From: Candidatus Babeliales bacterium
GTDB lineage: Bacteria; Babelota; Babeliae; Babelales; JBFXEV01
Length of the DNA: 64,000 nucleotides
Reading direction: 5' to 3'
Assembly: GCA_050179755.1 (NCBI GenBank)
Contig: JBFXEV010000001.1
Span: 585,994 to 649,993, forward strand
The notes under the pieces are model-generated. The model had not been told where the DNA came from and made no database searches. It worked only from the letters and a program-made list of their open reading frames with translations. Below are positions 15,369 to 33,132 of this stretch, in pieces (the stretch's first letter is position 1; each line of letters starts with the position of its first letter). The position numbers and the translations under genes are program-made.

Positions 15369-17174
15369 TTACTTTTTCAATAATTTTCTTTCATTATCTT
15401 TTTTTAATAAATCTAAAATGGTTTCTATAGTACGGTTTTTTTCACGAGCTTGTGCAAGTCTTAGTTGGTGCGTATTGAAAACGGCATCGCTTGTAGTTGT
15501 TACTCCAGGCATAGGTAGCATTTCTTCAGCTAAATCTAATGGGGTTTTTCCTTTTGCAAGCACGGGTGCATTTTTATATGTTGGTCTATGCTCCAAAGAC
15601 GTATCTGTTGCATTATTAAACACTGATGCAGTACGTGCAAGGAGTACTTTAACCCATTCAAGTTGTTGTAAGCCTACCGCCAGATGCAGAGCACCAAAAC
15701 CTTCTTTGGTTCTTCTATTAGGATTCGCGTCATGATAAAAAAATATTAAAATCGCTATCTTGCGTTTGGCATCGGTACATGTAGATAAGAGTAACTCATA
15801 AAAAGGAGTCACCCCAAGCCTGTTTTGTATATTTGGATCTGCTCCAGCACTAAGCATGTGTTGGACTGCCTCCGAATTTGATTCCTCATATGTTTTTAAA
15901 AGAAAGTGAAAAGAAGTTTCACCTAGCCAATTTTGAGTATTAGGATTTGCTCTATGTTTGAGCAAAGTGAGTAGTAATTTATGGCGGAAGAAACAGAATG
16001 ATTCAAGTTCTGCATGCGGTCTAAACACATAATGTAAAGCAGTTTCTCCGCTCCCATTTTGACTATCTATCGGTACGCCATGTTCTATCAAAAGATCTAT
16101 TAGTTTAGGGCGCGTTTCTTGAAACACTCTATCAGAACTGTGATGTTTTATTGCGTAATGCAAAGCATTTTCTTTTTCTTTATTGCCAAGTAATGGATTG
16201 GCGCCCTGCTTGAGAAATAAAGTAACTTGCTTTAATAATTGGGATGCATCAAATTCATTTATTGGGGTACTTGCAAGTAATAAATGGAGCGGTGTTTCGC
16301 CATTGATATCTTGCGCATTCACCGTAGAGGTTGCCATTGGGTGTTTGAGCAATAATTCTGTGCTGCTGTAATCTCTAATTTGTACCGCATAATGTAATCG
16401 TGTTTTGCCCGTTTGCTTGTCTTGTGCAGTTATTGTTTTATTTTCGCAAAGTTGTTTGATCGCACCTTCAAAAACAGTGTGACTAGCAGCAAGTAATAAT
16501 TTTTTATCAATAATCGCAAGAGCTGGATTGTCCAGCGCCCTACAAAGCATAACATTGTATGGCAATCTTTGGGCATAATCGAGTGTAGTTTGTCCGGCAG
16601 TAGTTTCAATCATTGGATTTGCGTTATAGGTAAGGAGTAGCGTGGCAACCTTAAATTGTTGAGAAGCTTCAAATTCATTTGACGTGGTAAAGCTTACGGC
16701 AAAATGCAGTGCTGTTTCTCCAGTTCCATCTGCAATATCAATTAATCCAGGTGATTCTTGTAATAACTGTTCTATGCAGGTAGTTTCTTGTAGCCATGTT
16801 GCCAAATGGAGACGAGTTCTTCCATGTGGGTCTTGTGCATTTATTGATGTAGTTTGTATCAGATCTGCAACTGCTTGTTGCACGTTACTATCAGCAGCTG
16901 CACGCAGTAATCGAGCGTCAATTTGCGCAAGCATGCTCAATGGTTCCTGTACATCCATCCGCCGTTGCTCCTCCGGAGCTCCCGCTACGCCTAAGCTATA
17001 GCGTGGCCAGATGGCGTGATTGGTATCACGTTCTTCGGCAAGTTCCCAGCCTTCGCGTGAAGCTACGGCGGGCACGGCAGGATGAGCGGACCTTGGCCAA
17101 GTCGGATCCATTGCATATATGTTGTGCGCAAATTGCAGTGATATGCATAAGAAAAAAATATTTTTTAACTTCAT
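15369..17174 (-). CDS. Secreted ankyrin-repeat protein with repeat-derived N-terminal segment
   Basis: Many GETALH/GETPLH repeats; signal peptide; residues about 29-73 encoded by palindromic repeats. Confidence 0.92.
   Translation of the reverse strand: MKLKNIFFLCISLQFAHNIYAMDPTWPRSAHPAVPAVASREGWELAEERDTNHAIWPRYSLGVAGAPEEQRRMDVQEPLSMLAQIDARLLRAAADSNVQQAVADLIQTTSINAQDPHGRTRLHLATWLQETTCIEQLLQESPGLIDIADGTGETALHFAVSFTTSNEFEASQQFKVATLLLTYNANPMIETTAGQTTLDYAQRLPYNVMLCRALDNPALAIIDKKLLLAASHTVFEGAIKQLCENKTITAQDKQTGKTRLHYAVQIRDYSSTELLLKHPMATSTVNAQDINGETPLHLLLASTPINEFDASQLLKQVTLFLKQGANPLLGNKEKENALHYAIKHHSSDRVFQETRPKLIDLLIEHGVPIDSQNGSGETALHYVFRPHAELESFCFFRHKLLLTLLKHRANPNTQNWLGETSFHFLLKTYEESNSEAVQHMLSAGADPNIQNRLGVTPFYELLLSTCTDAKRKIAILIFFYHDANPNRRTKEGFGALHLAVGLQQLEWVKVLLARTASVFNNATDTSLEHRPTYKNAPVLAKGKTPLDLAEEMLPMPGVTTTSDAVFNTHQLRLAQAREKNRTIETILDLLKKDNERKLLKK
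16958..17090. repeat. Nested in-frame repeats: family B inside C, and family B inside A
   Basis: + strand: tccgccgttgctcctccggagct[30 nt B, 16981-17010]atggcg. Minus strand: tccgctcatcctg[33 nt B, 17045-17077]aacttgccgaag. Confidence 0.75.
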
Positions 17175-17261
17175 AATATTCCTTTTATGCTAAGTATATC
17201 TCATGCTTAATGTCAGTCTACTTGAAAATAAATAAAAAATGTAAGCGTTTTAATTGCATTG

Positions 17262-17270
17262 TGGTATAAT
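17262..17270 (+). promoter_or_regulatory. Extended -10 promoter of ddl
   Basis: TGgTATAAT about 30 nt upstream of the ATG, followed by an agagg RBS. Confidence 0.55.
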
Positions 17271-17299
17271 AATGCCACTTATTTTAGAGAGGAAAATCT

Positions 17300-19540
17300 A
17301 TGCAAAAAATTCGTGTTGGTGTGATTATGGGAGGCATGTCAATTGAAGATGAAGTGTCATTTAATTCTGGCAGAACTATTTGTGATCATTTAGATAGTTC
17401 TTGTTACGAAATTATTCCATTATTTCATACGCACGATAATGCTTTATACATTTTACCATGGCGATTTTTGCATCGTGGAAAAATTTCAGATTTTATTGAG
17501 CGATTAGCTTCTGAGGGTAAGCAAGTAACATGGGATCAATTAAAAAACACGATTGATTTCATGTACATTGCAACTCATGGTAGATTCGCAGAAGATGGCA
17601 CGCTCCAAGGCATGCTGGAAGTGCTTGGCATTCCCTACCTTGGTGCAAAGGTATACGCAAGTGCTTTGCGCATGGATAAAATTGTGCAAAAAAGCGTGCT
17701 CCAACGGCATGGAGTTTTGGTTCCACGCTATGCGGTAGTTCGTGCGCATGAAATTGGCCAATTTTCATTAATGAAAGATGATATTTACAAACGCATGGAA
17801 AAAGCAGGCGTTGTGTTCCCCTGCATTGTAAAACCACAAGCAGAAGGTTCTAGCTTGGGCATACGTAAAGTGCATACGCAGGACGATTTGGAAGAAGCAT
17901 GCAAAAAAGCAGCGTGGGTAAATGCTCAATCAGCACAGAATGTGCTGATTGAAGAATGTTTGTTTGGCATGGAATTTACGTGTGTTATATTGACCGATTA
18001 TACAACTGGCCAACCAATATTTTTACCGCCAACAGAAATTGTGATAGAAGATGGTTCTGATATTTTTGACTATGAACAAAAATATATGCCAGGTCGTGCG
18101 CAAAAATTTACACCAGCGCGTTGCAGCCAAGAGCTTACCGAGCGTATTCAACAGACATGCTATACAGCAATGCGCGCGCTTAATATTACTAACATGAGCC
18201 GTATTGATGGGTTTGTAACACCACATGAAGAAATTTATATTATTGATCCTAATTCTCTTTCTGGTATGGGGCCTGCAAGCTTTTTATTTAAGCAAGCTGC
18301 CGAATATGGCATGAATCATACAGACTTGATAAATCATTTGATTAAAACAGAATTAAAATCCTATAGAATAGGAATGGAAATGAATACTCCCGAGACAAAA
18401 GCTGGTGCGGTTAGTGCAACACATAAATTGAAAGTAGCAGTACTTCTTGGCGGTAGATCAAATGAAAAAGAGATTTCACTTGATTCTGGCAGAAACGTCG
18501 TCTATAAATTATCGCCCAATACATACGATGTCACACCACTTTTTGTGAGCAGCAAGCTTGAACTGTATCGCTTGAATGCAAAATTATTAGTATGTAATAA
18601 TACAGGTGAAATTGAGCGCCAACTAACACCAGATTTGTTTGTTGCTTGGAATGATTTGCCTAAGATTGCAGATTTTGTTTTTATTGGATTGCATGGTGGA
18701 GAAGGTGAGAATGGTGCAATACAAGGCACACTAGAACTTCTTAAATTACCATATAATGGCCCTTCGGTACTGACCAGTGCATTATGTATGAATAAATATG
18801 AAACAAATCAATTGCTTAAGGCGCACGGCTTTGCTGTGCCTGAAAGCGTGCTTATAGAAAAAAATGAATGGCAAAGGGCGCAAGATCAGTGCATTCAAAA
18901 AGTAATTACCACACTTCAGTTCCCGCTTATTTTAAAACCACATAATGATGGCTGTAGTGTTGGTGTACAAAAAATTCTAAATGAACAACAATTAAAACCA
19001 ATGCTTGAAGCGTTCTTTGTAGATCGCATGCAAGCTCTTTTAGAAGTTTGCGTTATTGGCATGGAATTAACTGTTGGTGTAATTGGCAATACTACTGCGC
19101 AAGCATTACCGCCAAGTAAAGCAGTAGCAGCTGCTGGTGTTCTTTCTATGACAGAAAAGTTTTTGCCAGGCGCTGGTGAAAATCAAACTCCTGCGCCACT
19201 TTCTGCTCAAGCAACTGAATTGGTGCAACGCACTATTGAGCACGTATATACAACAGTTGGGTGCAAAGGTTACTCACGCATTGACTGCTTTTATCAAACT
19301 CAAGCAGAAAGCCCTACAGGATTTGAACGCGTGGTTATTTTAGAAATTAATACGCTACCAGCACTTACTCCTGCAACGTGCCTTTTTCATCAAGCTGCAG
19401 AGCTTGGCATGAAGCCAATGGATCTCATTGATAAGATTGTGCAACTTGGGTTAGAACAACATAATGGTGAGACTGCAAAGGAAATGAACGTTAATAAAGT
19501 GCGCCACGCATCACAAACAGTTCATCTGGATGTAAAGTAA
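17300..19540 (+). CDS. ddl: Tandem D-Ala-D-Ala ligase fusion (two ATP-grasp Ddl domains)
   Basis: Domain 1: GVIMGGMSIEDEVSFNSG, HGRFAEDG, KPQAEGSSLG, DYEQKY, RIDG. Domain 2: AVLLGGRSNEKEISLDSG, LHGGEGENG, KPHNDGCSVG, RIDC, LEINTLP. Confidence 0.9.
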   Translation: MQKIRVGVIMGGMSIEDEVSFNSGRTICDHLDSSCYEIIPLFHTHDNALYILPWRFLHRGKISDFIERLASEGKQVTWDQLKNTIDFMYIATHGRFAEDGTLQGMLEVLGIPYLGAKVYASALRMDKIVQKSVLQRHGVLVPRYAVVRAHEIGQFSLMKDDIYKRMEKAGVVFPCIVKPQAEGSSLGIRKVHTQDDLEEACKKAAWVNAQSAQNVLIEECLFGMEFTCVILTDYTTGQPIFLPPTEIVIEDGSDIFDYEQKYMPGRAQKFTPARCSQELTERIQQTCYTAMRALNITNMSRIDGFVTPHEEIYIIDPNSLSGMGPASFLFKQAAEYGMNHTDLINHLIKTELKSYRIGMEMNTPETKAGAVSATHKLKVAVLLGGRSNEKEISLDSGRNVVYKLSPNTYDVTPLFVSSKLELYRLNAKLLVCNNTGEIERQLTPDLFVAWNDLPKIADFVFIGLHGGEGENGAIQGTLELLKLPYNGPSVLTSALCMNKYETNQLLKAHGFAVPESVLIEKNEWQRAQDQCIQKVITTLQFPLILKPHNDGCSVGVQKILNEQQLKPMLEAFFVDRMQALLEVCVIGMELTVGVIGNTTAQALPPSKAVAAAGVLSMTEKFLPGAGENQTPAPLSAQATELVQRTIEHVYTTVGCKGYSRIDCFYQTQAESPTGFERVVILEINTLPALTPATCLFHQAAELGMKPMDLIDKIVQLGLEQHNGETAKEMNVNKVRHASQTVHLDVK

Positions 19541-19630: not shown

Positions 19631-22357
19631 TTATGAATATGCTGCAAGTATATCTTGAGCGATCTTCTCTGCAATTACATAGCATACACCATTCGGCCAA
19701 CGCGCGCTTACTGGCGTAACGCTCATATCTGCAATATAGAGATCTTGCATACCAAATACCTTGCCATTTTGATCAACAACCGCTAATGGATCGCCTACTA
19801 CACCCATCTTACAGGTTCCCATAGCGTGATGCCCACCGGTATAATTGAGTAAGAAGGTTCGTAATTTCGCTTGATCAACATCAGCTATGCTGTTGAATTC
19901 TACTACACCATCCAATAGAATGTCTTCTGGAGATGGGAATAGGAGCTTTTCAAAGTAAGCAGGAGATGTCGCTTTTAAGGCTGTCCAAACAGGGAATACC
20001 GTATTATTCATCACATCAATCCAAACTTGTAGATCGTGTGGATGTTCAAGATATGGCATATGTATGAACGGTGGCACGGTAGGGTCACTAGATACCAGTT
20101 TTACAAATCCTTCTGATAGGTTGTCTTGTTCTTGTTCTAAGAGCAGACCTAGTATGTTGTTAGGATCTACCATAATAGGCAAGAATGCAGCATCGCCAGT
20201 AATAGTTGTTACACCACCACCAAATACGCCAGGATTAGTTGGATATAATAATGTTATCGTGGTGACACCAGGAACATTATTACGAGTAACTGTAGGAAGC
20301 CCGTTAAATGCTGAAGCAGTAAACTTGCCGTTATAGTTTGGATTGCTATTACCTTCTACCGTAAATCCTCCTGATGACACTATTGATGCTGGTATGGTAA
20401 ATGTTACTGACCATGGACCCGTATCAGGTGGCGTTGGAGCAACTGGTGCTGCAGCAGAAGTAACGGTGATAGGGCCAGGATTTGCCGTTGGATTAGTTGT
20501 ATCAAGTAAAATATTGTGGAATGTGTTTCTGGTATTGGTGCTATAAATTGCAGGAACGTTTCTGAGCCCTGACCAGAACTTTTGCACAAATGGATCTGTA
20601 GATTCACAGTTAATAAAGAATAGGCTGCCAGCAACAAAGAGTAAATCAAAAGCTGGTGGAATACCATTGGCTCTGTCAGTTGGATTTACAAACGTAGAGA
20701 GAGTATTGAATGTTAAGAAAGAGTTAATGGCTCCCTCTGCTTTTTGCCAAACTAAAAACAGTTCGGTAGAGTCAAGCAAATGTTGCCCTACGCCAGGCAA
20801 ATGGAGTTTTGACTCTATGCCCATTGGTTCTAAATCAAATTTATTACCAATTCCTGAAAGGTTGAGAATTTGAGGCGTATTGAAAGAACCCGCACAAAGT
20901 ATTACAGCTTTTTTTGCATATACTTTGCAGGTATCTTTTTTCTTTGCAGCAACGCCATTAAATCGAGCATCACCACGAGTGCCACCATATCCTGCTTGTG
21001 AGGTGTTTGGATTGCGACCAGTTTGGTAAATGTTCCAACCCTCTAGATATTCAACACCTTTTGCCTGGTTATCTTTAAGTATTAGATTTGTTACTAATAC
21101 TTCAGACTTAATAGTTAGATTTGGTCTGTTTTGGGCATCATAAAGATATGTATTTGCAGAAGATACTCGTTGAAGGAGTTGGAGTGCGGCAGGATCTAAT
21201 GTTGGATCATTCAGATCTTGGTATTCTTGAGGCACTTTAAATCCAGTGTCTCCATATTTAGGAAAGTTATATACTGCAAATGGTACGTTATTTGCAAAAT
21301 CTCCTGGCGCAGGAGCATTACCAGGCTCTGTAATGGTGGCATTGAGAACTTGGAAATTTAATGTGGCATTAAGAATACTTAAACCACCAAACATTGCAGT
21401 AGGTGGGTAATCAAGATCTACAAGCGCTGCAACGCCTGGTGCTGCAAGTGGATAATCAAAACTGCTTAACGTAGTACCAACTACCTCTTGAAGAACAGGA
21501 GTAAACTCATCTGGGAATCCATGAACGAGAGGAATTTCGCCATCAAACCCGTACCATGCAGGATCAAACCCTCCAAATTCACCTGCGGCTAAAGCAGGAT
21601 TATAAAGTGGTAAACTGCCTGGAGTGGGTGGTACTGCAATGATTGCTTGTGAACGATTTTCAATTTTTTTATAAATTGGCACAAGCGGGCTTGCTGGTGT
21701 GCTTGCGTCCCAATCGGTTAAACCAAGTGCAACCCATTGGTTCCAGTTATAGGGTGCGTTGCGAACATCAATGTTATTATTATGTGATGAGCATCCACCC
21801 CATTGAGCGCCTCTGGTGTACGTAGTGCTGTTAAAACCGTTGGGGCGATCTGTTTGCTCATAATACCACCAACTGCCAAAGCCTCTGTTGAGCTGTGCCC
21901 CATTAAAAGGAGAACCTCCACGATTATATTTTCCCCAATTGTAATCGCCGGGTTGAGGCACATTAGCTGGAGATGGTTCTGGTAATAATTCTGATTCGCG
22001 AGCATCATCTCTGCCAGCTTCAAGCACGCATACAGTAAATTCGCCGCTTTCACTCAAGCGGTTTGCAAGCACGCAACCGGCTTGACCTGCACCAACGATT
22101 ACAAAATCAAACTTTTCTTTTTTGCAATGATTCTTTTTCTTCTTGCATTTATCTTTTTCCTTTTTGCATGGCTTTGGGCAACAAGGATTGTGCGGGCGAT
22201 TGTGATGCTTTTTGCGCTCACTACGTGTTATGTTTTGATCACACTCTGTGCTTTGCGTGTCTGTTCTTGCCAGTGCCATATAAGGCGTAACTATATTGAG
22301 TAGTAAACTGTAAAAAATAAGCTGTGCAAACATTCGTTTGCCATATTGTTTTTTCAT
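19631..22357 (-). CDS. Secreted GMC oxidoreductase family protein (GMC-1, long type)
   Basis: FDFVIVGAGQAGCVLANRLSE, VLEAG, VILCAG..TPQILNLSGIG, LPGVGQHL, HAMGTCKMG, VVD..GKVFG..DLYIADMS; signal peptide. Confidence 0.93.
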   Translation of the reverse strand: MKKQYGKRMFAQLIFYSLLLNIVTPYMALARTDTQSTECDQNITRSERKKHHNRPHNPCCPKPCKKEKDKCKKKKNHCKKEKFDFVIVGAGQAGCVLANRLSESGEFTVCVLEAGRDDARESELLPEPSPANVPQPGDYNWGKYNRGGSPFNGAQLNRGFGSWWYYEQTDRPNGFNSTTYTRGAQWGGCSSHNNNIDVRNAPYNWNQWVALGLTDWDASTPASPLVPIYKKIENRSQAIIAVPPTPGSLPLYNPALAAGEFGGFDPAWYGFDGEIPLVHGFPDEFTPVLQEVVGTTLSSFDYPLAAPGVAALVDLDYPPTAMFGGLSILNATLNFQVLNATITEPGNAPAPGDFANNVPFAVYNFPKYGDTGFKVPQEYQDLNDPTLDPAALQLLQRVSSANTYLYDAQNRPNLTIKSEVLVTNLILKDNQAKGVEYLEGWNIYQTGRNPNTSQAGYGGTRGDARFNGVAAKKKDTCKVYAKKAVILCAGSFNTPQILNLSGIGNKFDLEPMGIESKLHLPGVGQHLLDSTELFLVWQKAEGAINSFLTFNTLSTFVNPTDRANGIPPAFDLLFVAGSLFFINCESTDPFVQKFWSGLRNVPAIYSTNTRNTFHNILLDTTNPTANPGPITVTSAAAPVAPTPPDTGPWSVTFTIPASIVSSGGFTVEGNSNPNYNGKFTASAFNGLPTVTRNNVPGVTTITLLYPTNPGVFGGGVTTITGDAAFLPIMVDPNNILGLLLEQEQDNLSEGFVKLVSSDPTVPPFIHMPYLEHPHDLQVWIDVMNNTVFPVWTALKATSPAYFEKLLFPSPEDILLDGVVEFNSIADVDQAKLRTFLLNYTGGHHAMGTCKMGVVGDPLAVVDQNGKVFGMQDLYIADMSVTPVSARWPNGVCYVIAEKIAQDILAAYS

Positions 22358-22727
22358 TATGAATCTTTCTAAAACATTATTGAACTACTTTTTTCCTGCT
22401 CGTTTTAAGATGAGTTCGAGCGGCTCTTTTTTTGTTTCCCTCCTCTTTATTTTTTGTTTAACGTTATCTCACGTTTATAATATATGCTTCAATTTTATGA
22501 TTTAATTTTTACAATAGCATTTATTTATAATGTTGCAAATGGGGTGCTTTTTTTACAAAAGCCCGATAATACCTTAAAATCCTATTTATTTATTAAATAA
22601 AAAAGGCCTTATTAAGGTCATGCGGCATTTCCCTTTTTTTAGAGGTTTTTTGATTTCCTCCTAATAGGCAGATGCGGAATAATTAAAATAAGTAAGTGCT
22701 ATAATTTCTATAGTGATCCTAAAAAGA

Positions 22728-22780
22728 GTACTGCCTTGCTGCGTGTTGCTCTTAAAACAATACGTACAACAGGGCAGTAC
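22728..22780 (-). terminator. Intrinsic terminator after GMC-2
   Basis: Long hairpin gtactgcc...ggcagtac followed by a U-tract on the minus strand. Confidence 0.7.
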
Positions 22781-22813
22781 CAAGAAAATTAATTCTCTTT
22801 GTTTACTTATCGT

Positions 22814-25525
22814 TTATGCATATGCTGCAAGAATATCTTGAGCGATCTTCTCTGCAATTACATAGCACGTACTATTAGGCCACCGCACGCTCACAGGTGT
22901 AACGCTCATATCCGCAATGTACAGGTTTTTCATGCCAAATACTTTGCCATCTTGATCAACAACAGCCAAAGGATCTGCCGCTGTGCCCATCTTGCATGTT
23001 CCCATAGCGTGATGCCCCCCAACATAATTGAGTAAGAAAGTTCGTAGTTTTGCTTGATCAACGTCAGCTGCACTGTTGAACTCAACTATACCATCAAGCA
23101 GAATGTCTGCTGGAGATGGGAATAAGAGTTTCTCAAAATAAGCGGGAGTTGTTGTTTTTAATGCCTCCCAAACAGGAAATACCGTGTTATTCATCACATC
23201 TACCCAATTTTGTAAATCTTGCGGATGTTCAAGATATGGCATATGTATAAATGGTGGCACTGTAGGGTCTGTAGATACCAATTTTACGAAACCTTCTGAT
23301 AGATTATCTTGTTCTTGTTCTAACAGTAGTCCGTGCGCGCTAATAGGATCTACCATAATAGGTAAGAATGCAGCATCGCCAGTAATAGTTGTTACACCAC
23401 CACCAAATACGCCAGGATTAGTTGGATATAATAATGTTATCGTGGTGACACCAGGAACATTATTACGAGTAACTGTAGGAAGCCCATTAAATGCTGAAGC
23501 AGTAAACTTACCGTTATAGTTTGGATTGCTATTACCTTCTACCGTAAATCCTCCTGATGACACTATTGATGCTGGTATGGTAAATGTTACTGACCATGGA
23601 CCCGTATCAGGTGGTGTTGGAGCAACTGGCGCTGCAGCAGAAATTACTGTTATAGGCTCAGGATTTGCTGTTGGATTTGTTGTATCCAGTAAAATATTGT
23701 GGAATGTATTTCTGGTATTGGTGCTATAAATTGCAGGCACGTTCCTAAGCCCTGCCCAGAATTTTTGCACAAAGGGATCAGTAGTTTCACAACTAATACT
23801 AAAAATAGTGCCACCAAGAAAGATTAAATCAAAAGCTGGTGGAATACCGTTGGCCTTATCTGTTGGATTTACAAATGTTGAAAGCGTATTGAAGTTTGTT
23901 GGAGTGTTAACTCTTCCTTCAGGCGTTTGCCATAATAAAAATAATTCAGTATCATCAATTAAGTGTTGGCCTACGCCAGGCAAATGGAGTTTTGACTCTA
24001 TGCCCATTGGTTCCAAATCAAACCTATTGCCAATACCTGAAAGGTTTAGAATCTGTGGCGTATTGAAAGCACCTGCACAAAGCACTACAGCTTTCTTTGC
24101 ATAGACCTTGCATGTACTTTCTTTTTTTGCTGCAACGCCATTAAATCGAGCGTCGCCAACAGTGCCACCATAACCGGCTTGTGAGGTATTTGGATTACGA
24201 CCAGCTTGATAAATATTCCAGCCCTTCAAATATTCAACACCTTTGACCTTGTTGCTATCTGATATAATGAGGTTGGTCACTAATACTTCTGATTTTACTG
24301 TCAGATTTCGTCTGTTTTCAGCATCATACAAATATGTATTAGCTGATGAAACTCTTTGGAACGGTTGAAGTGCTGCAGGATCTAGAGTTGGATCATTGAG
24401 ATCTTGAAACTCTTCAGGTACTTTAAATCCAGTGTCTCCATATTTAGGGAAATTGTATACCGCAAATGGCACGTTGTTTGCAAAGTCACCGGGAGCAGGT
24501 GCATCGCCCGGCTCTGTAAGAGTAGCATCCAAAATTTGGAATGTTAACGTGTTATTAAGAATACTGAGTCCGCCTTCTCGTGTCATTGGTGGATAATCAA
24601 GATCTACAAGGTTTGCAACGCCTGGTGCTGCAAGTGGATAATCAAAACTGCTTAACGTAGTACCAACTACCCCTTGAAGAACAGTAGTAAATTCATCTGG
24701 GAATCCATGCAAGATAGGAACTTCGCCATCAAATCCGTACCATGCTGGGTCAAATCCTCCAAAGGCTCCTGGAGTTCCTGGATTATAGAAAGGAACGGCG
24801 GTACCAAAAATTGCTTGAGAACGATTTTCAATTTTTTTGTATATTGAAACAAGTGGACTAACTGGCGTGCTTGCATCCCAATCGGTCAAGCCAAGCGCAA
24901 CCCATTGATCCCAATTATACGGTGCATTTCGAATCCAAAGATTATTGTTATGTGATGAGCATCCACCCCATTTTGCGCCTCTGGTGTACGTAGTGCTATT
25001 AAATCCATTGGGGCGATCTGCCTGCGTATAGTACCACCAACTGCCAAAGCCTCTATTTAAAAGAGGTCCTACAAAAAGAGGGCCGCCACGAGTGTATTTT
25101 CCCCAATGATAATCGCCTGGTTGAGGCACGTTGGCAGGTGACGGCTCAGGTAATAATTCTGAAAGTCGAGCATCATCTCTGCCCACTTCAAGTACACAAA
25201 CAGTAAATTTACCATTTTCACTTAATCGATTGGCAAGCACGCACCCGGCTTGACCTGCGCCTACGATTACAAAGTCAAACTTTTCTTTTTTCCTCTTTTT
25301 CTTCTTGCATTTATCTTTTTCCTTTTTGCATGGTTTTGGGCAACAAGGATTGTGAGGGCGATCGTGATGCTTTTTGCGCTCACCACGTGTTATGTTTTGA
25401 TCACACTCTGTGTTTTGCGTGTCTGTTCTTGCGAGCGCCATATAAGGCGTAACTATATTGAGCAGTAAACTGTAAAAAATAAGCTGCGCAAACATTCGTT
25501 TGCCATACTGTTTTTTCATGTACAA
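22814..25525 (-). CDS. Secreted GMC oxidoreductase family protein (GMC-2, long type)
   Basis: Close paralog of GMC-1 with the same motifs. Confidence 0.93.
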   Translation of the reverse strand: MYMKKQYGKRMFAQLIFYSLLLNIVTPYMALARTDTQNTECDQNITRGERKKHHDRPHNPCCPKPCKKEKDKCKKKKRKKEKFDFVIVGAGQAGCVLANRLSENGKFTVCVLEVGRDDARLSELLPEPSPANVPQPGDYHWGKYTRGGPLFVGPLLNRGFGSWWYYTQADRPNGFNSTTYTRGAKWGGCSSHNNNLWIRNAPYNWDQWVALGLTDWDASTPVSPLVSIYKKIENRSQAIFGTAVPFYNPGTPGAFGGFDPAWYGFDGEVPILHGFPDEFTTVLQGVVGTTLSSFDYPLAAPGVANLVDLDYPPMTREGGLSILNNTLTFQILDATLTEPGDAPAPGDFANNVPFAVYNFPKYGDTGFKVPEEFQDLNDPTLDPAALQPFQRVSSANTYLYDAENRRNLTVKSEVLVTNLIISDSNKVKGVEYLKGWNIYQAGRNPNTSQAGYGGTVGDARFNGVAAKKESTCKVYAKKAVVLCAGAFNTPQILNLSGIGNRFDLEPMGIESKLHLPGVGQHLIDDTELFLLWQTPEGRVNTPTNFNTLSTFVNPTDKANGIPPAFDLIFLGGTIFSISCETTDPFVQKFWAGLRNVPAIYSTNTRNTFHNILLDTTNPTANPEPITVISAAAPVAPTPPDTGPWSVTFTIPASIVSSGGFTVEGNSNPNYNGKFTASAFNGLPTVTRNNVPGVTTITLLYPTNPGVFGGGVTTITGDAAFLPIMVDPISAHGLLLEQEQDNLSEGFVKLVSTDPTVPPFIHMPYLEHPQDLQNWVDVMNNTVFPVWEALKTTTPAYFEKLLFPSPADILLDGIVEFNSAADVDQAKLRTFLLNYVGGHHAMGTCKMGTAADPLAVVDQDGKVFGMKNLYIADMSVTPVSVRWPNSTCYVIAEKIAQDILAAYA

Positions 25526-25680
25526 ATCTTTCTATTAAATTATTAAACTACTTTTTATTTTAAGCTGAAATGTAGTGGTATCCCCTTTCTTTGTGTAGAG
25601 AGCTTACCAAGATGCTGTCTTGAGTAAGCTCTAGATTTGATGATTTAATTAATGTTATCAACAATAAATTCAGAAACTGC
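25440..25680. repeat. Duplicated gene-junction block, copy 1
   Basis: Closely matches 27815-28050: SEFIVDNIN stop region, gagcttac-caagatgct.tcttga-gtaagctc hairpin and MYMKKQYGKRMFAQLIFYSLLLN leader. Confidence 0.85.
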
Positions 25681-27894
25681 TTCTCCTACAACATATCCAG
25701 CACGTGACGTGTTAAATGCGTGTAACCAAGGTGTTACATAGACGCTAGTATCGGCAATTCTGAGGTTATCTACACCAAGTACTCTGCAGCGTGGGTCAAG
25801 TACCGTGTTTTTGTTTTTAGCTTTACCCGTTTTTTTATCTATGGCGCCCATTTGGCATGTACCGCACATTTGGTGACCGTATGCACTCCAATTCTTAATG
25901 TATTGTTTTAATTCTGCAACTGAGCCTGCATTTGGCCCTGGGATAATTTCCCATGGTTGCCCTGGAATGCCGTAAACATCTTTTATTGCAGGGTCTTCCA
26001 TCACGGCGCGTATTTGTTGCACCATGAGTGCTATTTGTTCAATAGCTGTCTCATCTTCATAAAGTTGTTCATGGATAATAGGAGCAATTCTTGGATCATT
26101 GCTTGCAAGTCGAATGGTTCCTGGCGAAACATGGGGTTTTAAGGTTGCAGTAAGCCAGGAGACAAATACACGAGGAAATGGAGCAAATTGAGCAAACCAT
26201 AAATCAGCTTTGATAGGTATGCCTGTTTGATTAATGGGATCATTAAAATCAGGAACCAATAGTTTTCTTGAATAATCAAAATAACTGTCTGGGTACTGTG
26301 GACTTACATACGTTTGGTCAAAATTGAAGAAGAAGACTTGATAAGGAATAGCATTTATATCAGGAAACGGATATTGGCCAGGTTGTGGTGAAGGGGGTTG
26401 ACCCGCACTATACCATTCCCATTGAATTTCTGAGGTGTTGGTATCAAATGTATTAGGGAATGCTTCAACAGAAGCTTTGGCAACAGCATAAATATCAGGG
26501 TTTGTTTCCTGTAAATTTGGATAGAGAGCTAATAATACCGCTGCTTGCCAACTTGGTATGAAGACTAATGGGTTGATCTCAAAGATTATTGCTACTTCAA
26601 CGTGATCTAAAAGGTCACTACCAACGCCAGGAAGATCTACTTTTGGTTTTATACCAACGCTTTGTAAATGTGCTTTTGGACCAATTCCTGAAAGCATAAG
26701 AAGTTGCGGTGTTTGAATTGCACCAGCGCAGACTATTACTTCTTTTCTTGCTAAATAATTCGTTGCTACTCTAGGTAAAGATTGATCAGTGGTAAGAGCA
26801 GTACATGTTTCTGGATTTACACAGTCACTTGGATCTTCACATACAATGTTAAACGCGGCACCAGATTGTACTTCTTGTAAGTATGCTTTATTGTATGCTT
26901 TTACACCACATGCTTTATATTTATTTTTGCCACATTTATTTTCTTTAAGAATAATTTCTGCGGCAAGCGTGTTAAATTCAACATGTATGTTACCGGTTTG
27001 TTCTTTCACGGGAGTTAGTAATGCTTGATATACATATGATCTTGTTCCTTCAGTTGTTATTTGTATGTCAGCATTACCAACGCCATCAGGTTCTTGAGGA
27101 TTGCAGAAATTTTCTCGAAAAGGAACGTTGATAGTATCAACAATTACATTTGAAATAGATTGAAGCAATGGTTCAACTGGAGTATGTTGAATGCTTAGCC
27201 ATCCTTGAGTTCCTGGGCAATCATCACCTGGTTGTGCATATAATACATTTTCCATTTTTTTAAATAAACGGTTTATGTTGCTGCCAAGCCAATAATCGTC
27301 TTCAATAAGTTTGGCAATGTTATCATATACTTGGAGTGATCCAACGCCATCATTTAAAGCTTGTATAGAAACAGATCCGCCAGCGCCTAAGCCGCGAGGG
27401 TATGCATAATAAATGCCATTTTGATCAGTTGAAACAAATCCTGCCAGCGGTTGAGTTGCATTCCAAGTACCGCAATTGGTTGAATTTGGATCCATATTGA
27501 ATCTGTTTCTAAGAGATGCTAAACCAATTGGGGCTTCAATTAAGGTTTTATCAAATTGCACTAATGGATCAGTTGATTGCAAACTTGTATCAGGGCCTGC
27601 TTCCAGCACAATTACTGAAAAACCAGCTTGCGCAAGCCGCGAAGCTACAACACATCCGCCAGCCCCTGCTCCTACTACAATATAATCAGCAGTATAATCG
27701 AATGACCCATTACATTTAAAAGCATTTTTTTGACAATTGTTGGCGCGTGAACCACGTGATATATTTTGATCGTATTTTGTGCTTTGCGCGTTTGTTCTTG
27801 CGAGCGCAATAGAGGGCGTAATTGTGTTGAGCAGTAAACTGTAAAAAATAAGCTGCGCAAACATTCGTTTGCCATACTGTTTCTTCATGTACAA
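25645..27894 (-). CDS. Secreted GMC oxidoreductase family protein (GMC-3, short type)
   Basis: [57 protein letters not shown]. Confidence 0.93.
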   Translation of the reverse strand: MYMKKQYGKRMFAQLIFYSLLLNTITPSIALARTNAQSTKYDQNISRGSRANNCQKNAFKCNGSFDYTADYIVVGAGAGGCVVASRLAQAGFSVIVLEAGPDTSLQSTDPLVQFDKTLIEAPIGLASLRNRFNMDPNSTNCGTWNATQPLAGFVSTDQNGIYYAYPRGLGAGGSVSIQALNDGVGSLQVYDNIAKLIEDDYWLGSNINRLFKKMENVLYAQPGDDCPGTQGWLSIQHTPVEPLLQSISNVIVDTINVPFRENFCNPQEPDGVGNADIQITTEGTRSYVYQALLTPVKEQTGNIHVEFNTLAAEIILKENKCGKNKYKACGVKAYNKAYLQEVQSGAAFNIVCEDPSDCVNPETCTALTTDQSLPRVATNYLARKEVIVCAGAIQTPQLLMLSGIGPKAHLQSVGIKPKVDLPGVGSDLLDHVEVAIIFEINPLVFIPSWQAAVLLALYPNLQETNPDIYAVAKASVEAFPNTFDTNTSEIQWEWYSAGQPPSPQPGQYPFPDINAIPYQVFFFNFDQTYVSPQYPDSYFDYSRKLLVPDFNDPINQTGIPIKADLWFAQFAPFPRVFVSWLTATLKPHVSPGTIRLASNDPRIAPIIHEQLYEDETAIEQIALMVQQIRAVMEDPAIKDVYGIPGQPWEIIPGPNAGSVAELKQYIKNWSAYGHQMCGTCQMGAIDKKTGKAKNKNTVLDPRCRVLGVDNLRIADTSVYVTPWLHAFNTSRAGYVVGEAVSEFIVDNIN

Positions 27895-28050
27895 ACCTTT
27901 CTACTATATTATTAAACTGTTTTTTCATCAATTTTTATGCTGAAATGTAGTGGTGTTTTCTCTTCTTTGTGTAGAGAGCTTACCAAGATGCTATCTTGAG
28001 TAAGCTCCAGATTTGATGACTTAATTAATATTATCAACAATAAATTCAGA
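27815..28050. repeat. Duplicated gene-junction block, copy 2
   Basis: Matches 25440-25680, including the hairpin at 27976-28007. Confidence 0.85.
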
Positions 28051-30234
28051 AACCGCCTCGCCAATTAAATAAGCTGCAATTGCTGTATTACCCGCATGAA
28101 TCCAGGGTTTTACATATACGCTGGTATCTGCAACGCGTAGACTGTCTACGCCAAGTACTCTGCATCGCGAATCAAGGACAGTGTTTGGATTCTTTGCTTT
28201 TCCAGTTTGTTTGTCTACTGCGCCCATTTGGCACGTACCGCTTATGTGATGTCCCCACGAGCTCCAATTTTTTATGTATTGTTTAAGTTCATCAACAGTA
28301 GCAGCATTTGGACCGGGAATAATTTCCCATGGCTGGCCAGGAATGCTGTATTTATCTTTGATGAGTGGGTTATTCATCACGTTACGTACCTCTTGAATCA
28401 TAAGAGCAATTCGTTCTATTGCTATTTCATCTTCAAAAAGTTGTTCGTGCAGTATTGGTGAAATTCTTGGATCTTTGCTTGCCAGGCGAACTGTGCCATT
28501 AGCAACGTGTGGTACTAAGTTTACTAGGTTCCAACTAAGAAACGTTCGTGGACTGGAAGTAAACATTGAAAAAAATGTTGCTCCTTGGAGCGGCACTCCT
28601 GTTTGATCAAGCGGATCATCAATATTTGGTATTAGTTGATTTCTTGGGAAATCAAAATAATTGCCTGGATATTGTGGGCCAAACCATGTTTGATCAAAAT
28701 TAAATATAAAGGCATTAAATGGTATTGCTTGGATTTTAGGGAGCGGGAATTGCCCTGTTTGTTCGCCAGCAAAATTATACCATTGGAGCGAGGATGTATT
28801 ATAAGCCAAAGGGTTTTCTGGAAACGCTGCAAGTGATGCAATGCATACAGCAAATATTTCTGGGTTAATTTGTTCTAAATTTGGGTTAAGAGCCAATATA
28901 AAAGCTGCTTGCCAAGCTGGTATAAAAACTAAAGGATTAGTTTCGTAACTTAGATACGCTTCGCAATGGTCTAGCAGATCAGATCCCACGCCTGGTAGAT
29001 TAATTTTGGTTTTTATACCTACATCTTCTAAGTGTTCTTTTGGCCCAATACCAGAGAGCATAAGCAGTTGCGGTGATTGAAGTGCACCACAGCACACGAT
29101 TACCTCTTTTTTGGCAATATAATTGGTGGTGCGGGCAGGTAAAGATTGATCAGTGTTTATTGCAAGGCAATCAGTAGGGTTTGGACAACTTTCAACGGGG
29201 CATATAACTTCAAATGCGGCGCCAGATTGTACTTCTTGCAAATATGCTTTGTCATAAGCTTTAACGCCAACTGCTTTATATTTATTTTGGTTTTTGCAGC
29301 ATGAACGTTTGTTTTCCTTCAAGATAATTTCTGAAACCAAGGTATTAAAAATAACTCTAATATTTCCTGTGTTGGCCATTTCAGGTACTAATAAATCTTG
29401 GTAGCCATAAGATCGATTCCCTGCAGCAGTAATATCTTGATCATTGTTGCCAATACCAACGATTTCTTGAGGATTACAAAAGTTTTCAAGAAAAGGTTTT
29501 TGAACCATAGCAACAACTACATCGGCGATATCTTGTGATAATTCTTCTATTGGCGTATGTTTAATTGATAACCAACCTTCTGTCGAGCAGCCATCACCTG
29601 GTGTTGCATATAGAATCTTTACTATTTTATTATACAAGCGATGTATGTTATCGCCTCTCCAGTAATCATCTTCAACAACTTCGGCAATATTATTATAGAC
29701 TTGTAATGATCCAAGTATATGTACAAAGCCATGCATATTAGATGAGCCACCTGCTCCAAGTCCACGAGGATATGCATAATATATGCCATTTTGATCAGAA
29801 GAAATAAAGTTTGCAAGATTTTGCGTTGCGTTCCAGTTGCCACAATTAGTTGAATTGGGATCTTGGTTAAATCTGTTTCTTTCAAGAACCAAATTTATAG
29901 GAATACGTATGAGATTTTTATCGAATTGAACGCGTGGGTCAGTAGATTGTAAACTGGTATCGGGGCCCGCTTCAAGAACTATTACTGAATAGCCTGCTTG
30001 TGCAAGGCGTGCTGCTACCACTGAACCAGCAGTTCCTGCCCCTACTATTATATAGTCAGCGCTATAATCAAACGATCCATGGCACGAATATTGTTTTTGG
30101 CAGCATGAGGGCAAACTACCTTTTTGGCTGTGGCCGTCTGTTTGTGCGAACGCCATATAAGGCGTAATTATATTGAGTAGTAAACTAAAAAAAATGAATT
30201 GTGCAAACATTTGTTTGCTGTGTGCTTTGTTCAT
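28021..30234 (-). CDS. Secreted GMC oxidoreductase family protein (GMC-4, short type)
   Basis: [44 protein letters not shown]. Confidence 0.93.
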
Positions 30235-30442
30235 TACAAATCCTTTGCTTGTATTATTAAACTGCTTTTTGTTGGGTTGTTCTAGAGTTAGTTAAGCTGT
30301 TTTGGCGCCTTTCTTTTTAGCAAATTATTCCTAATATTACCTTAGCAGTTATGCTGGAAATTGCAATGCGCTGATTTTTTATTGTCACCTCTTGTGTTGT
30401 TTTGTTGCATTTGGGTACGCTAAAGTTAATAAAGGAGACGAA

Positions 30443-32900: not shown

Positions 32901-32976
32901 GTGGGAATAGCTCAGCTGGTAGAGCGTTGCCTTGCCAAGGCAAAGGTCGCGGGTTCGAATCCCGTTTCCCACTCCA
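32901..32976 (+). tRNA. tRNA-Gly (GCC)
   Basis: 76-nt cloverleaf: acceptor GTGGGAA/TTCCCAC, anticodon arm TTGCC-TTGCCAA-GGCAA, GGTTCGAATCC T-arm, U73, encoded CCA. Confidence 0.97.
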
Positions 32977-32977
32977 C

Positions 32978-33132
32978 TCGCCGCCGCTCCTTTGGAGCTA
33001 AGGCGTAGTGCCACGCATAGCGCTTCGCGTGAAGGTGGGTAGTCTTCGTTCTTGTAGGCTATTTTCTATAGCCTTTATCCGCTCATCCAGAGTGTTCTAT
33101 AAAGCTTTAGCGAAATAGAATGTATCGAGGGG
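32978..33132. repeat. Repeat cluster behind tRNA-Gly: family C (32978-33005), B (33009-33039, reverse), A (33079-33132)
   Basis: tcgccgccgctcctttggagctaaggcg; reverse complement cccaccttcacgcgaagcgctatgcgtggca; ccgctcatccagagtg-ttctat..atagaa-tgtatcgaggg. Confidence 0.8.

What the first reader, a model, noticed from the sequence alone, without database searches (positions are those of the whole stretch)
16958..17090. About 45 residues of an ankyrin protein built from four nested repeat insertions
Seen: just after the signal peptide, a family A element is split by a 33-nt family B element and a family C element is split by a 30-nt family B element. Removing the B inserts restores tccgctcatcctg|aacttgccgaag and ggagct|atggcg, the latter matching ggagct|aaggcg at 32994. 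Both inserts are multiples of three and the frame stays open (SAHPAVPAVASREGWELAEE..WPRYSLGVAGAPEEQRRMD). Inference: new protein sequence created by serial insertion, with B preferring other palindromes as targets.
Basis: partly seen in the sequence, partly recalled or inferred. Interest (0 to 1): 0.8.

Follow-up and report, generated by a model that had tools for sequence, protein, structure and literature searches.

The report
Nested hairpin repeats in ankyrin gene
A 51-codon stretch right after the export signal of a secreted ankyrin protein is a Russian-doll stack of small selfish hairpin DNA repeats that is read through as protein, much like the palindromic elements inside Rickettsia genes.

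Summary
In ORF 15369..17174 (-), a 153-nt GC-rich block (17111..16959, codons 22-72) follows the signal peptide. It consists of a 69-nt carrier element (C) holding a 30-nt hairpin unit (B30) and a 27-nt unit (A), and A is itself split by a 33-nt hairpin (B33). All four recur elsewhere in the genome, with zero hits for reversed-pattern controls.

The syntenic orthologue in the only same-genus genome lacks the block. A five-gene paralogue array shows C as a clean 69-nt insertion bounded by a 5-bp ATGGA repeat.

Differences among copies fall evenly over codon positions, so this is a DNA element and not a conserved peptide. All 11 complete composites keep the reading frame, so it is translated.

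"Serial insertion in this gene" is not shown. C+B30 and A[B33] exist as ready-made composites elsewhere, so the block probably arrived pre-assembled.

B does sit preferentially inside A, and A sits inside B-type hairpins. C is confined to this genus and lies almost always at the signal-peptide/Met junction, which is unexplained. No mobilising enzyme was identified.

This scan had already found the A27/B33 nest and in-frame hairpin repeats in other genomes. I class it as an RPE-like variant.

The parts
17112..17174 (-). Codons 1-21, a Sec-type signal peptide (MKLKNIFFLCISLQFAHNIYA)
   Evidence: ORF. It has a basic n-region, a hydrophobic core and a small residue at -1 (judged by eye; no signal-peptide predictor was on hand). 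The homologous leader is kept in the G001 orthologue.
16959..17111 (-). The whole inserted block: 153 nt, 51 codons (residues 22-72). It is bounded by the direct repeat ATGGA(T) at 17111-17106 and 16958-16953.
   Evidence: The alignment with the syntenic G001 orthologue has one copy of the repeat and nothing in between. Coordinates are from the ruler.
17091..17111 (-). Carrier element C, 5' arm
   Evidence: One mismatch to the copy at G000 337575. There are 13 hits in G000 and 17 in G001 at <=5 mismatches.
17078..17090 (-). Family A, 5' half
   Evidence: The 12-mer inside it occurs 13 times in the genome, and the other 12 occurrences lead into A-type units.
17045..17077 (-). B33, a 33-nt hairpin unit nested in A
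   Evidence: Best hit of the B profile in G000. Relatives occur in 49 of 151 genomes of the order. The stem is supported by covariation.
17031..17044 (-). Family A, 3' half (3 mismatches in 14 to the consensus, and 3 nt shorter at its end than the copy at G000 1094786)
17010..17030 (-). Carrier element C, middle hairpin
   Evidence: Identical 21-mer at G000 337602 and 409071.
16980..17009 (-). B30, a 30-nt hairpin unit nested in C
   Evidence: Copies at G000 337623 (2 mismatches) and 1094732 (4 mismatches), and one inside the tRNA-adjacent relative near G000 836890. Five copies in G001 at <=7 mismatches.
16953..16979 (-). Carrier element C, 3' arm, with a small inner hairpin, a purine-rich run that looks like a Shine-Dalgarno site, and the second ATGGAT
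15369..16952 (-). Rest of the ankyrin-repeat ORF (residues 75-601 and the stop codon)
   Evidence: Pfam Ank_2, Ank_4, Ank, Ank_5 and Ank_3. It is 38% identical over 432 aligned positions to the G001 orthologue, E 1e-90.
32977..33046 (+). tRNA-adjacent relative of C, starting at the base after the CCA end of tRNA-Gly (32901-32976).

Best explanation
The patch is a composite of non-autonomous, GC-rich hairpin repeat elements that landed in frame in the linker just behind the signal-peptide cleavage site of a secreted ankyrin protein. It is now translated as a 51-residue N-terminal extension of the mature protein.

Shown:
- A 69-nt carrier (C), known only from this genus, is inserted at an ATGGA site that is also the Met-Asp/Glu codon pair following the signal peptide.
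- C carries a 30-nt hairpin unit (B30) and a 27-nt unit (A). A carries the 33-nt hairpin B33.
- Every layer has a length that keeps the frame, and the used frame has no stop.
- The copies evolve as DNA, not as a peptide.
- B sits at one fixed site in A-type units. A sits at one fixed 3-nt site in B-type hairpins, including the B-like 5' hairpin of C.

Inferred:
- The nest was assembled in the element lineage and entered this gene as one or two pre-built composites, after or around the split from the sister species.
- The elements spread by site-specific insertion at hairpin-associated sites, driven by an enzyme acting in trans that I could not identify. They may be fossils in this genome today.
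- The extension is tolerated because that part of the protein is a free N-terminal tail.
For: Repeat status: family A gives 21 hits against 0 for the reversed control, and the other units also give 0 control hits. The B profile gives 9 hits at E<0.01 in G000 and 7 in G001. BLAST with the window composite hits 49 of 151 genomes of the order, nearly all on the B33 plus A-arm part.

Hairpin: 95.2% of 189 cells are paired, 5 of 9 pairs change on both sides, and 0 of 500 shuffles reach this.

Insertion: the syntenic orthologue next to the same divergent ddl-ddl gene has the empty site. In a five-gene paralogue array with near-identical leaders, 2 genes carry the 69-nt C and 3 do not. The junctions are clean and bounded by the 5-bp repeat.

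DNA-level rather than protein-level: differences from consensus fall 38/41/39 on codon positions 1/2/3, with 20 synonymous against 82 non-synonymous codon changes.

Translated: 11 of 11 complete composites have lengths that keep the frame. That covers 8 different non-basal gap lengths, all multiples of 3. The other two sense frames of the window block contain stops.

Pre-assembly: the core is 96% identical to the G000 337575 copy. A[B] composites occur in other families, for example L021.

Nesting rules: B lies between the same two bases of A in the window, in L021-L027 and at G001 825000. An inverted A lies inside B, which lies inside A, at G000 286324 and at 1488551-1488642. The latter is also in frame, 4 residues after a signal peptide.

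Not an assembly artefact: one 19.7-kb contig in each of three runs spans the stretch with 0 differences. These may be the source samples.
Against: - No enzyme that could move the elements was tied to them. The only IS200-like gene lacks the first His of HUH in both genomes of the genus, and the catalytic Tyr as well in G000.
- None of 6 small GIY-YIG loci has A or B core motifs within 350 nt.
- The empty-site inference at this very gene rests on one congener. About 170 well-aligned bases lie upstream but only about a dozen lie downstream, because the orthologue also lacks residues 74-208.
- Precise loss in the sister lineage is not excluded.
- There is no transcript or peptide evidence.
- No empty allele appears in the contigs laid, though contigs drop rare variants.
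- A purely selfish, merely tolerated element does not by itself explain why C is almost always at the signal-peptide junction.
- Signal peptides were judged by eye and by a crude rule.
Confidence: 0.75

Rival explanations
1. The C cassette is kept at the signal-peptide/mature junction because it does something there. It could be an mRNA hairpin plus a Shine-Dalgarno-like run that slows the ribosome as the signal peptide emerges. It could be an internal restart site giving a form without the signal. Or it could be a spacer or pro-region for exported effectors. Under this reading the nested A and B units are passengers.
For: By eye, 22 of 30 C 5'-arm hits in the two genomes lie directly after a signal-peptide-like leader. 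Five of 6 independent C sites in G000 are at such junctions, although at most 114 of 2801 ATGGA sites are. That gives P about 6e-7 against all sites, and 0.01 against junction plus non-ORF sites only. The 3' arm ends with a purine-rich run about 9 nt before an in-frame ATG. At G000 487769 the same arm lies just upstream of the start codon of a signal-peptide gene.
Against: C is present in one species and absent from the other at the same gene, and varies among tandem paralogues, so it is dispensable. There is no protein-level constraint. The composite folds no better than shuffles: z -1.7, with 15 of 200 shuffles as good. Position relative to the start varies from about 40 to over 80 codons as inserts pile up. 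Relatives sit after tRNA genes, where none of these roles applies.
Confidence: 0.15
2. The block is not translated. The gene really starts at Met73 (ATG at 16958), and the leader plus GC-rich patch is 5' untranslated sequence that happens to be open.
For: A purine-rich, Shine-Dalgarno-like run lies about 9 nt before that ATG. The ankyrin repeats all lie downstream.
Against: The signal-peptide ORF, its upstream ribosome-binding region and the promoter-like stretch are conserved in the G001 orthologue. All 11 complete composites keep the frame and are stop-free, while other frames have stops. The same layout, leader then cassette then domain, recurs in at least 20 genes.
Confidence: 0.06
3. Residues 22-72 are an old, functional peptide motif, such as a sorting or pro-peptide signal of exported effectors. 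On this view they are inherited by paralogues and lost in some, and are not inserted DNA.
For: Many exported proteins of both genomes begin their mature part with a similar peptide.
Against: Changes among copies are 82 non-synonymous to 20 synonymous and even over codon positions. The DNA is 90-96% alike between genes whose leaders and domains are unrelated. The same DNA units occur outside genes and in both orientations. The insertion edges are clean in otherwise near-identical paralogues.
Confidence: 0.03
4. The block is skipped by the ribosome or removed from the RNA, as with programmed bypassing of GC-rich inserts or an intron-like element.
For: It consists of GC-rich hairpin inserts in an AT-rich gene.
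Against: All inserts are multiples of 3 and open in the used frame, so skipping is not needed. There is no Rfam match at E below 0.08 in 16700-17400.
Confidence: 0.01

Closest known systems
Rickettsia palindromic elements (RPE). I read passages of the review PMC10969869; the primary papers were not read.
   Same: Dispersed palindromic repeat DNA that sits in frame inside unrelated protein genes, adds residues without breaking the protein, and also occurs between genes. Both are found in a reduced, AT-rich intracellular bacterium.
   Different: The review gives RPEs as about 150 bp, and its passages do not describe nesting. Here the units are 27-69 nt and stacked three levels deep by fixed-site mutual nesting. 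One family (C) is almost confined to the signal-peptide junction. The phylum is different. Sequence relatedness to RPEs was not tested.
REP/BIME repeats and their RAYT (Y1 HUH) transposases
   Same: Imperfect hairpins of 20-40 nt with a bulged base and short non-palindromic flanks, many copies per genome, and mosaic arrangements.
   Different: REPs are extragenic and flank their RAYT gene. Here the only Y1 gene is degenerate and is not bracketed by the repeats. Copies sit inside genes.
Ssn single-strand nucleases with NTS/SRM hairpin repeats (Chenal et al. 2025, PMC11893778). I read the abstract and sections 6, 7, 10 and 17.
   Same: A hairpin with oriented non-palindromic flanks in many copies. 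The genome has an 80-aa GIY-YIG protein, and relatives occur in 106 of 151 genomes of the order.
   Different: A, B and C do not match the published SRM search motif, which has 1 match in the whole genome against 1-5 in shuffles. None of 6 GIY-YIG loci in the genus is flanked by A or B cores. The paper's sections that I read show cleavage and an effect on transformation, not insertion.
MITEs with target-site duplication, such as Correia elements (listed in PMC10969869; details recalled)
   Same: C is a discrete 69-nt unit bounded by a 5-bp direct repeat that is present once at empty sites.
   Different: The terminal inverted repeats are weak (by eye). No parent insertion sequence was found or searched for. 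The same 5-bp word at the flank and at the element's end would equally fit an IS200/IS605-type insertion without duplication.
Mobile GC clusters and bypassed 'byp' inserts in yeast mitochondrial genes (recalled; no paper read)
   Same: GC-rich palindromic inserts within coding sequence of an AT-rich genome.
   Different: Here all inserts keep the frame and are stop-free, so read-through suffices and bypassing is not needed.

Membership tests
In-frame palindromic repeat elements of the RPE kind (functional class) | Dispersed repeat copies beyond chance | tested here: met
In-frame palindromic repeat elements of the RPE kind (functional class) | Hairpin or palindromic architecture | tested here: met
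   The B stem is supported by covariation. The composite as a whole folds no better than shuffles.
In-frame palindromic repeat elements of the RPE kind (functional class) | Sits inside ORFs, keeps the frame, has no stop | tested here: met
   11 of 11 composites; ORF.
In-frame palindromic repeat elements of the RPE kind (functional class) | Absent from the same site in an orthologue or paralogue | tested here: met
Rickettsia RPE families proper | Sequence similarity to RPE consensus sequences | not tested
   No RPE sequence was on hand from a tool. The different phylum and unit size make membership unlikely.
REP/BIME with RAYT | Y1 HUH transposase gene with intact HUH and Tyr, flanked by the repeats | tested here: not met
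   There is one Y1_Tnp gene per genome of the genus. The first His is lost in both, and the Tyr is lost in G000. One A copy lies about 155 nt upstream in G000 and none within 600 nt in G001.
REP/BIME with RAYT | Extragenic location | tested here: not met
   This copy and at least 20 others are in ORFs. Most A copies do lie outside long ORFs.
Ssn / SRM system | Repeat matches the published degenerate SRM motif, and the motif is enriched in the genome | tested here: not met
Ssn / SRM system | Repeats flank the small GIY-YIG gene | tested here: not met
   0 of 6 loci for A or B cores within 350 nt; other hairpin repeats lie there.
Ssn / SRM system | Single-domain GIY-YIG protein of the cd10448 type in the genome | tested here: inconclusive
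   An 80-aa protein matches Pfam GIY-YIG at 54.6 bits. A CDD assignment was not available.
MITE with TIR and TSD | Target-site duplication | tested here: inconclusive
   The 5-bp ATGGA repeat occurs once at two empty sites. It cannot be told apart from an element end that repeats its target word.
MITE with TIR and TSD | Parent insertion sequence with the same ends | not tested
   No search for DDE transposases was run.

The most novel reading that the evidence does not exclude
A genus-specific 69-nt mobile cassette homes to, or is selectively kept at, the exact codon pair (Met-Asp/Glu, ATGGA) that follows the signal peptide of exported effector-type proteins. There it acts as a landing pad for further hairpin units. 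The N-terminal regions of a whole secretome would then be built and diversified by recursive nesting of selfish DNA, possibly with an effect on export or on use of the internal start.
Probability: 0.2. Interest if true: 0.75.

Novelty: new variant of a known kind. Interest (0 to 1): 0.5.

Why it matters
This is a clear, dated example of protein sequence made from selfish hairpin DNA. The block is present in one species and absent at the same site in its sister. It is stacked three layers deep by fixed-site mutual nesting.

It extends the Rickettsia RPE idea to Dependentiae-type intracellular bacteria. My library searches found no paper on such elements in that group.

Two points could open questions. 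The first is why one family sits almost only at the signal-peptide junction of exported proteins. The second is which enzyme moves units as small as 27-33 nt, one of which shares an exact 23-mer with bacteria of several phyla.

For annotation, such patches should not be read as conserved motifs of effector proteins.

Tried and rejected
- **Structure prediction of residues 1-230 without an alignment.** Mean pLDDT was 30.9 throughout. This says nothing about disorder of the insert.
- **Rfam on 16700-17400.** Only a chance miRNA-model match at E 0.08, outside the block.
- **Fold of the 159-nt composite as RNA.** z -1.7, so not distinctive.
- **Sequencing runs.** No RNA holder is listed. The contigs laid show no joint that skips the block. 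Contigs drop rare variants, and three of the four runs may be the source.
- **GIY-YIG (Ssn-like) as mover.** The SRM motif is not matched and the gene flanks are without A or B. Across the order, 42 of 49 genomes with B/A BLAST hits have the protein, against 64 of 102 without such hits. This is my tally. The genomes are related and so are not independent, and the association is weak.
- **IS200-like Y1 transposase as mover.** It is degenerate here. Across the order the figures are 23 of 49 against 31 of 102 (my tally), which is also weak.
- **Protein-motif reading.** Rejected on codon-position evidence.
- **Strand orientation of A and B against replication direction.** I stopped the step.
- **The repeat finder on the whole window.** It did not surface these short families; k-mer and mismatch scans did.
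- It timed out and was redone.
Full report
**The gene and the patch.** ORF 15369..17174 on the minus strand encodes 601 residues with ankyrin-repeat Pfam matches from residue 91 onward. Residues 1-21 look like a Sec signal peptide; I judged this by eye. Directly behind them the GC content rises to 56-62%, against 39.1% for the 1,525,295-bp genome. Earlier notes of this scan call the organism an uncultured Babeliales (Dependentiae) bacterium. I did not check the name.

**Anatomy, in gene orientation (ruler).**
- C 5' arm: 17111-17091.
- A 5' half: 17090-17078.
- B33: 17077-17045.
- A 3' half: 17044-17031.
- C middle hairpin: 17030-17010.
- B30: 17009-16980.
- C 3' arm: 16979-16953.

**Are these repeats real?**
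- Mismatch scans of both strands of the genome, with the reversed pattern as control, give the following.
  - The 27-nt A unit: 21 hits at <=3 mismatches, control 0.
  - B33: 5 hits at <=9 mismatches, control 0.
  - B30: 3 hits at <=5 mismatches, control 0.
  - The C arms: 5 to 8 hits at <=5 mismatches, control 0.
- A profile of 15 B copies finds the window copy as its best hit in G000 (E 5e-8). It finds 8 more at E<0.01 in G000 and 7 in the same-genus genome G001.
- A BLAST of 16946-17112 over 151 genomes of the order hits 49 of them. Nearly all hits fall on the part holding B33 and the A 5' arm.
- On 21 B copies the proposed stem, which has a bulged base, is paired in 95.2% of 189 cells. Five of 9 pairs change on both sides, and 0 of 500 shuffles reach these values.
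- B30 is only weakly B-like. Its alignment score is 9 against 3.2 +/- 1.4 for shuffles, and the B profile does not find it. However, in G001 the same site of C holds a longer unit whose arms look B-type by eye.

**It is an insertion.** G001 keeps the synteny: the fused ddl-ddl gene lies divergent from an ankyrin gene.
- The proteins are 38% identical over 432 aligned positions, E 1e-90.
- The DNA alignment runs through the promoter-like region, the start and the leader. G001 then has a single ATGGA where the window has ATGGA, 153 nt, and ATGGA again.
- Caveat: downstream similarity is short, because G001 also lacks the equivalent of residues 74-208.
- A cleaner case lies at G000 405-412 kb. 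Five tandem paralogues have near-identical upstream regions and leaders. Two carry the basal 69-nt C and three do not, and the edges are exact and bounded by the same 5-bp repeat.

**It is a DNA element, but it is translated.**
- Among 22, 13 and 16 copies of the three C segments from both genomes, differences from the consensus fall 38, 41 and 39 times on codon positions 1, 2 and 3. Changed codons are 82 non-synonymous to 20 synonymous. That is not how a selected peptide evolves.
- All 11 complete composites (6 in G000, 5 in G001; 75 to 198 nt) keep the frame. Their 8 different non-basal gap lengths are all multiples of three.
- The other two sense frames of the window block contain stops.
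- Units of the same families lie outside long ORFs in most cases, in both orientations, and behind tRNA genes.

**Nesting rules, and the question of serial insertion.**
- A scan for A arms finds 23 basal units and about 21 with a self-pairing centre of 20-35 nt.
- The scan also finds nests. One is A within A. Two are an inverted A inside a B inside an A, at G000 286324 and at 1488551-1488642. The latter is in frame, 4 residues behind the signal peptide of an 1837-residue ORF.
- B lies between the same two bases of A in the window, in loci L021-L027 from other families, and at G001 825000. The loci were fetched with a query that included the A arm, so they are biased toward that context.
- A lies at one 3-nt site of the 5' hairpin of C in the window, at G000 1094786 and in at least 4 G001 copies. 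It lies inverted at what looks like the matching site of B (by eye).
- The order of events in this gene is not shown. The window's C+B30 core is 96% identical to the copy at G000 337575, which lacks A. C+B30+A composites sit in other genes of both genomes. An A[B33] composite about 90% identical over some 60 nt exists in a genome of another family.
- The economical reading is entry of one or two pre-built composites.

**Range of the layers.**
- The full 75-nt C is found only in G000 and G001 among 151 genomes. Eight others match part of the 3' arm only.
- B is found across the order.
By record titles these are Alphaproteobacteria, Dehalococcoidia/SAR202, Acidobacteriota, Elusimicrobia and Dependentiae genomes. 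There it is often in inverted pairs or closed by a short stem.

**The signal-peptide junction.**
- By eye, 22 of 30 hits of the C 5' arm (<=5 mismatches; 13 in G000, 17 in G001) lie directly behind a signal-peptide-like leader. Two more are second copies a little further into the same protein.
- G000 has 2801 ATGGA sites. At most 114 are at such junctions and 272 lie outside ORFs of 100 residues or more.
- Five of 6 independent C sites are at junctions. That gives P about 6e-7 against all sites and 0.01 against the tolerant set.
- The junction codon pair is common in this genome: 124 of 518 leader-bearing ORFs have a small residue, then Met, then Asp/Glu/Asn/Gln at positions 15-36, against 29 of 626 other ORFs (crude rule).
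- I cannot tell targeting from selective retention. This is the basis of the novel reading.

**Who moves them?** This is unresolved.
- The one IS200-like gene (NCBIfam IS200 equivalog at 62 bits) aligns to solved ISDra2 and IS608 transposases with Leu in place of the first His of HUH and Phe in place of the catalytic Tyr.
- Its syntenic G001 orthologue keeps the Tyr but not the His, and has no A copy within 600 nt.
- An 80-residue GIY-YIG protein exists, and relatives are in 106 of 151 genomes.
- However, A, B and C do not match the SRM motif of Chenal et al., which is not enriched here. None of 6 GIY-YIG loci in the genus has A or B cores within 350 nt; other hairpin repeats lie there.
- Co-occurrence across the order is weak for both enzymes (my tallies).

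**What is known.**
- The review PMC10969869 (passages read) describes RPEs as about 150-bp elements that often make in-frame fusions in Rickettsia genes.
- Chenal et al. 2025 (abstract and four sections read) tie oriented hairpin repeats to Ssn nucleases.
- Library searches found nothing on these elements. I searched for Dependentiae with 'palindromic' or 'MITE', for Babela with repeat terms, and for the A motif letters or peptides.
- Within this scan the same A27/B33 nest was reported in another genome (e1-2079630), nested in-frame hairpins were reported in the gnd gene of another Babeliales genome (e1-2322523), and several similar cases were reported in other phyla. The general finding is therefore not new to the scan.
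- The genus-specific carrier at the signal-peptide junction, and the two empty-site comparisons, are what this window adds.

**Verdict.** The element is an RPE-like variant and the mechanism is open.

Noticed in passing
whole genome G000 (for example window ORF 15369-17174) and G001: Met directly after the predicted signal-peptide cleavage site is very common. In G000, 124 of 518 leader-bearing ORFs have a small residue, then Met, then Asp/Glu/Asn/Gln at positions 15-36, against 29 of 626 other ORFs (crude rule). This could mark leaders added in front of old start codons, or dual start sites.
   Followed up: partly
L133-L212 (genome contigs) and G000 copies such as 254063-254089: An exact 23-mer of the 27-nt A unit occurs in at least 124 stretches from several phyla by record title, often as inverted pairs. 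It is a very widely shared tiny repeat with no paper found for it.
   Followed up: partly
window 32901-33046; G000 836846-837010 and 910552-910623: Relatives of the C carrier start at the base after the CCA end of tRNA genes (tRNA-Gly in the window). One of them carries the same B30 insert at the same site.
   Followed up: partly
G000 405350-412750 (outside the window): A tandem array of five paralogous exported proteins with near-identical leaders. Two carry the 69-nt C and three do not.
   Followed up: yes
G000 216899-217375 (L003) and G001 1128857-1129189: A single-copy, syntenic IS200-like gene kept in both species although the first His of its HUH motif is lost. It is possibly domesticated.
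   Followed up: partly
G000, for example 700165-700338, 784819-785018, 1140227-1140422, 1381569-1767 region: A repeat family of about 160-200 nt with up to 13-14 matching loci and several inner hairpins. It was not examined.
   Followed up: no
G001 723850-724200: Three tandem hairpin repeats of about 75 nt lie directly upstream of a small GIY-YIG gene. They are unlike A, B or C.
   Followed up: no
window 17300-19540 (+): A 746-residue ORF that looks like two D-Ala-D-Ala ligase units fused in one protein (by eye). It is conserved next to the ankyrin gene in G001.
   Followed up: no
window 19631-30270: Four tandem paralogous gene units of about 2.3-3.2 kb, 70-96% alike.
   Followed up: no
G001 866933, 584084, 1243144, 1810623: A further nested unit, translated as a peptide of the LHQDSGGQG type, occupies the A site of C in several G001 genes. 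It was not seen in the G000 C copies listed.
   Followed up: no
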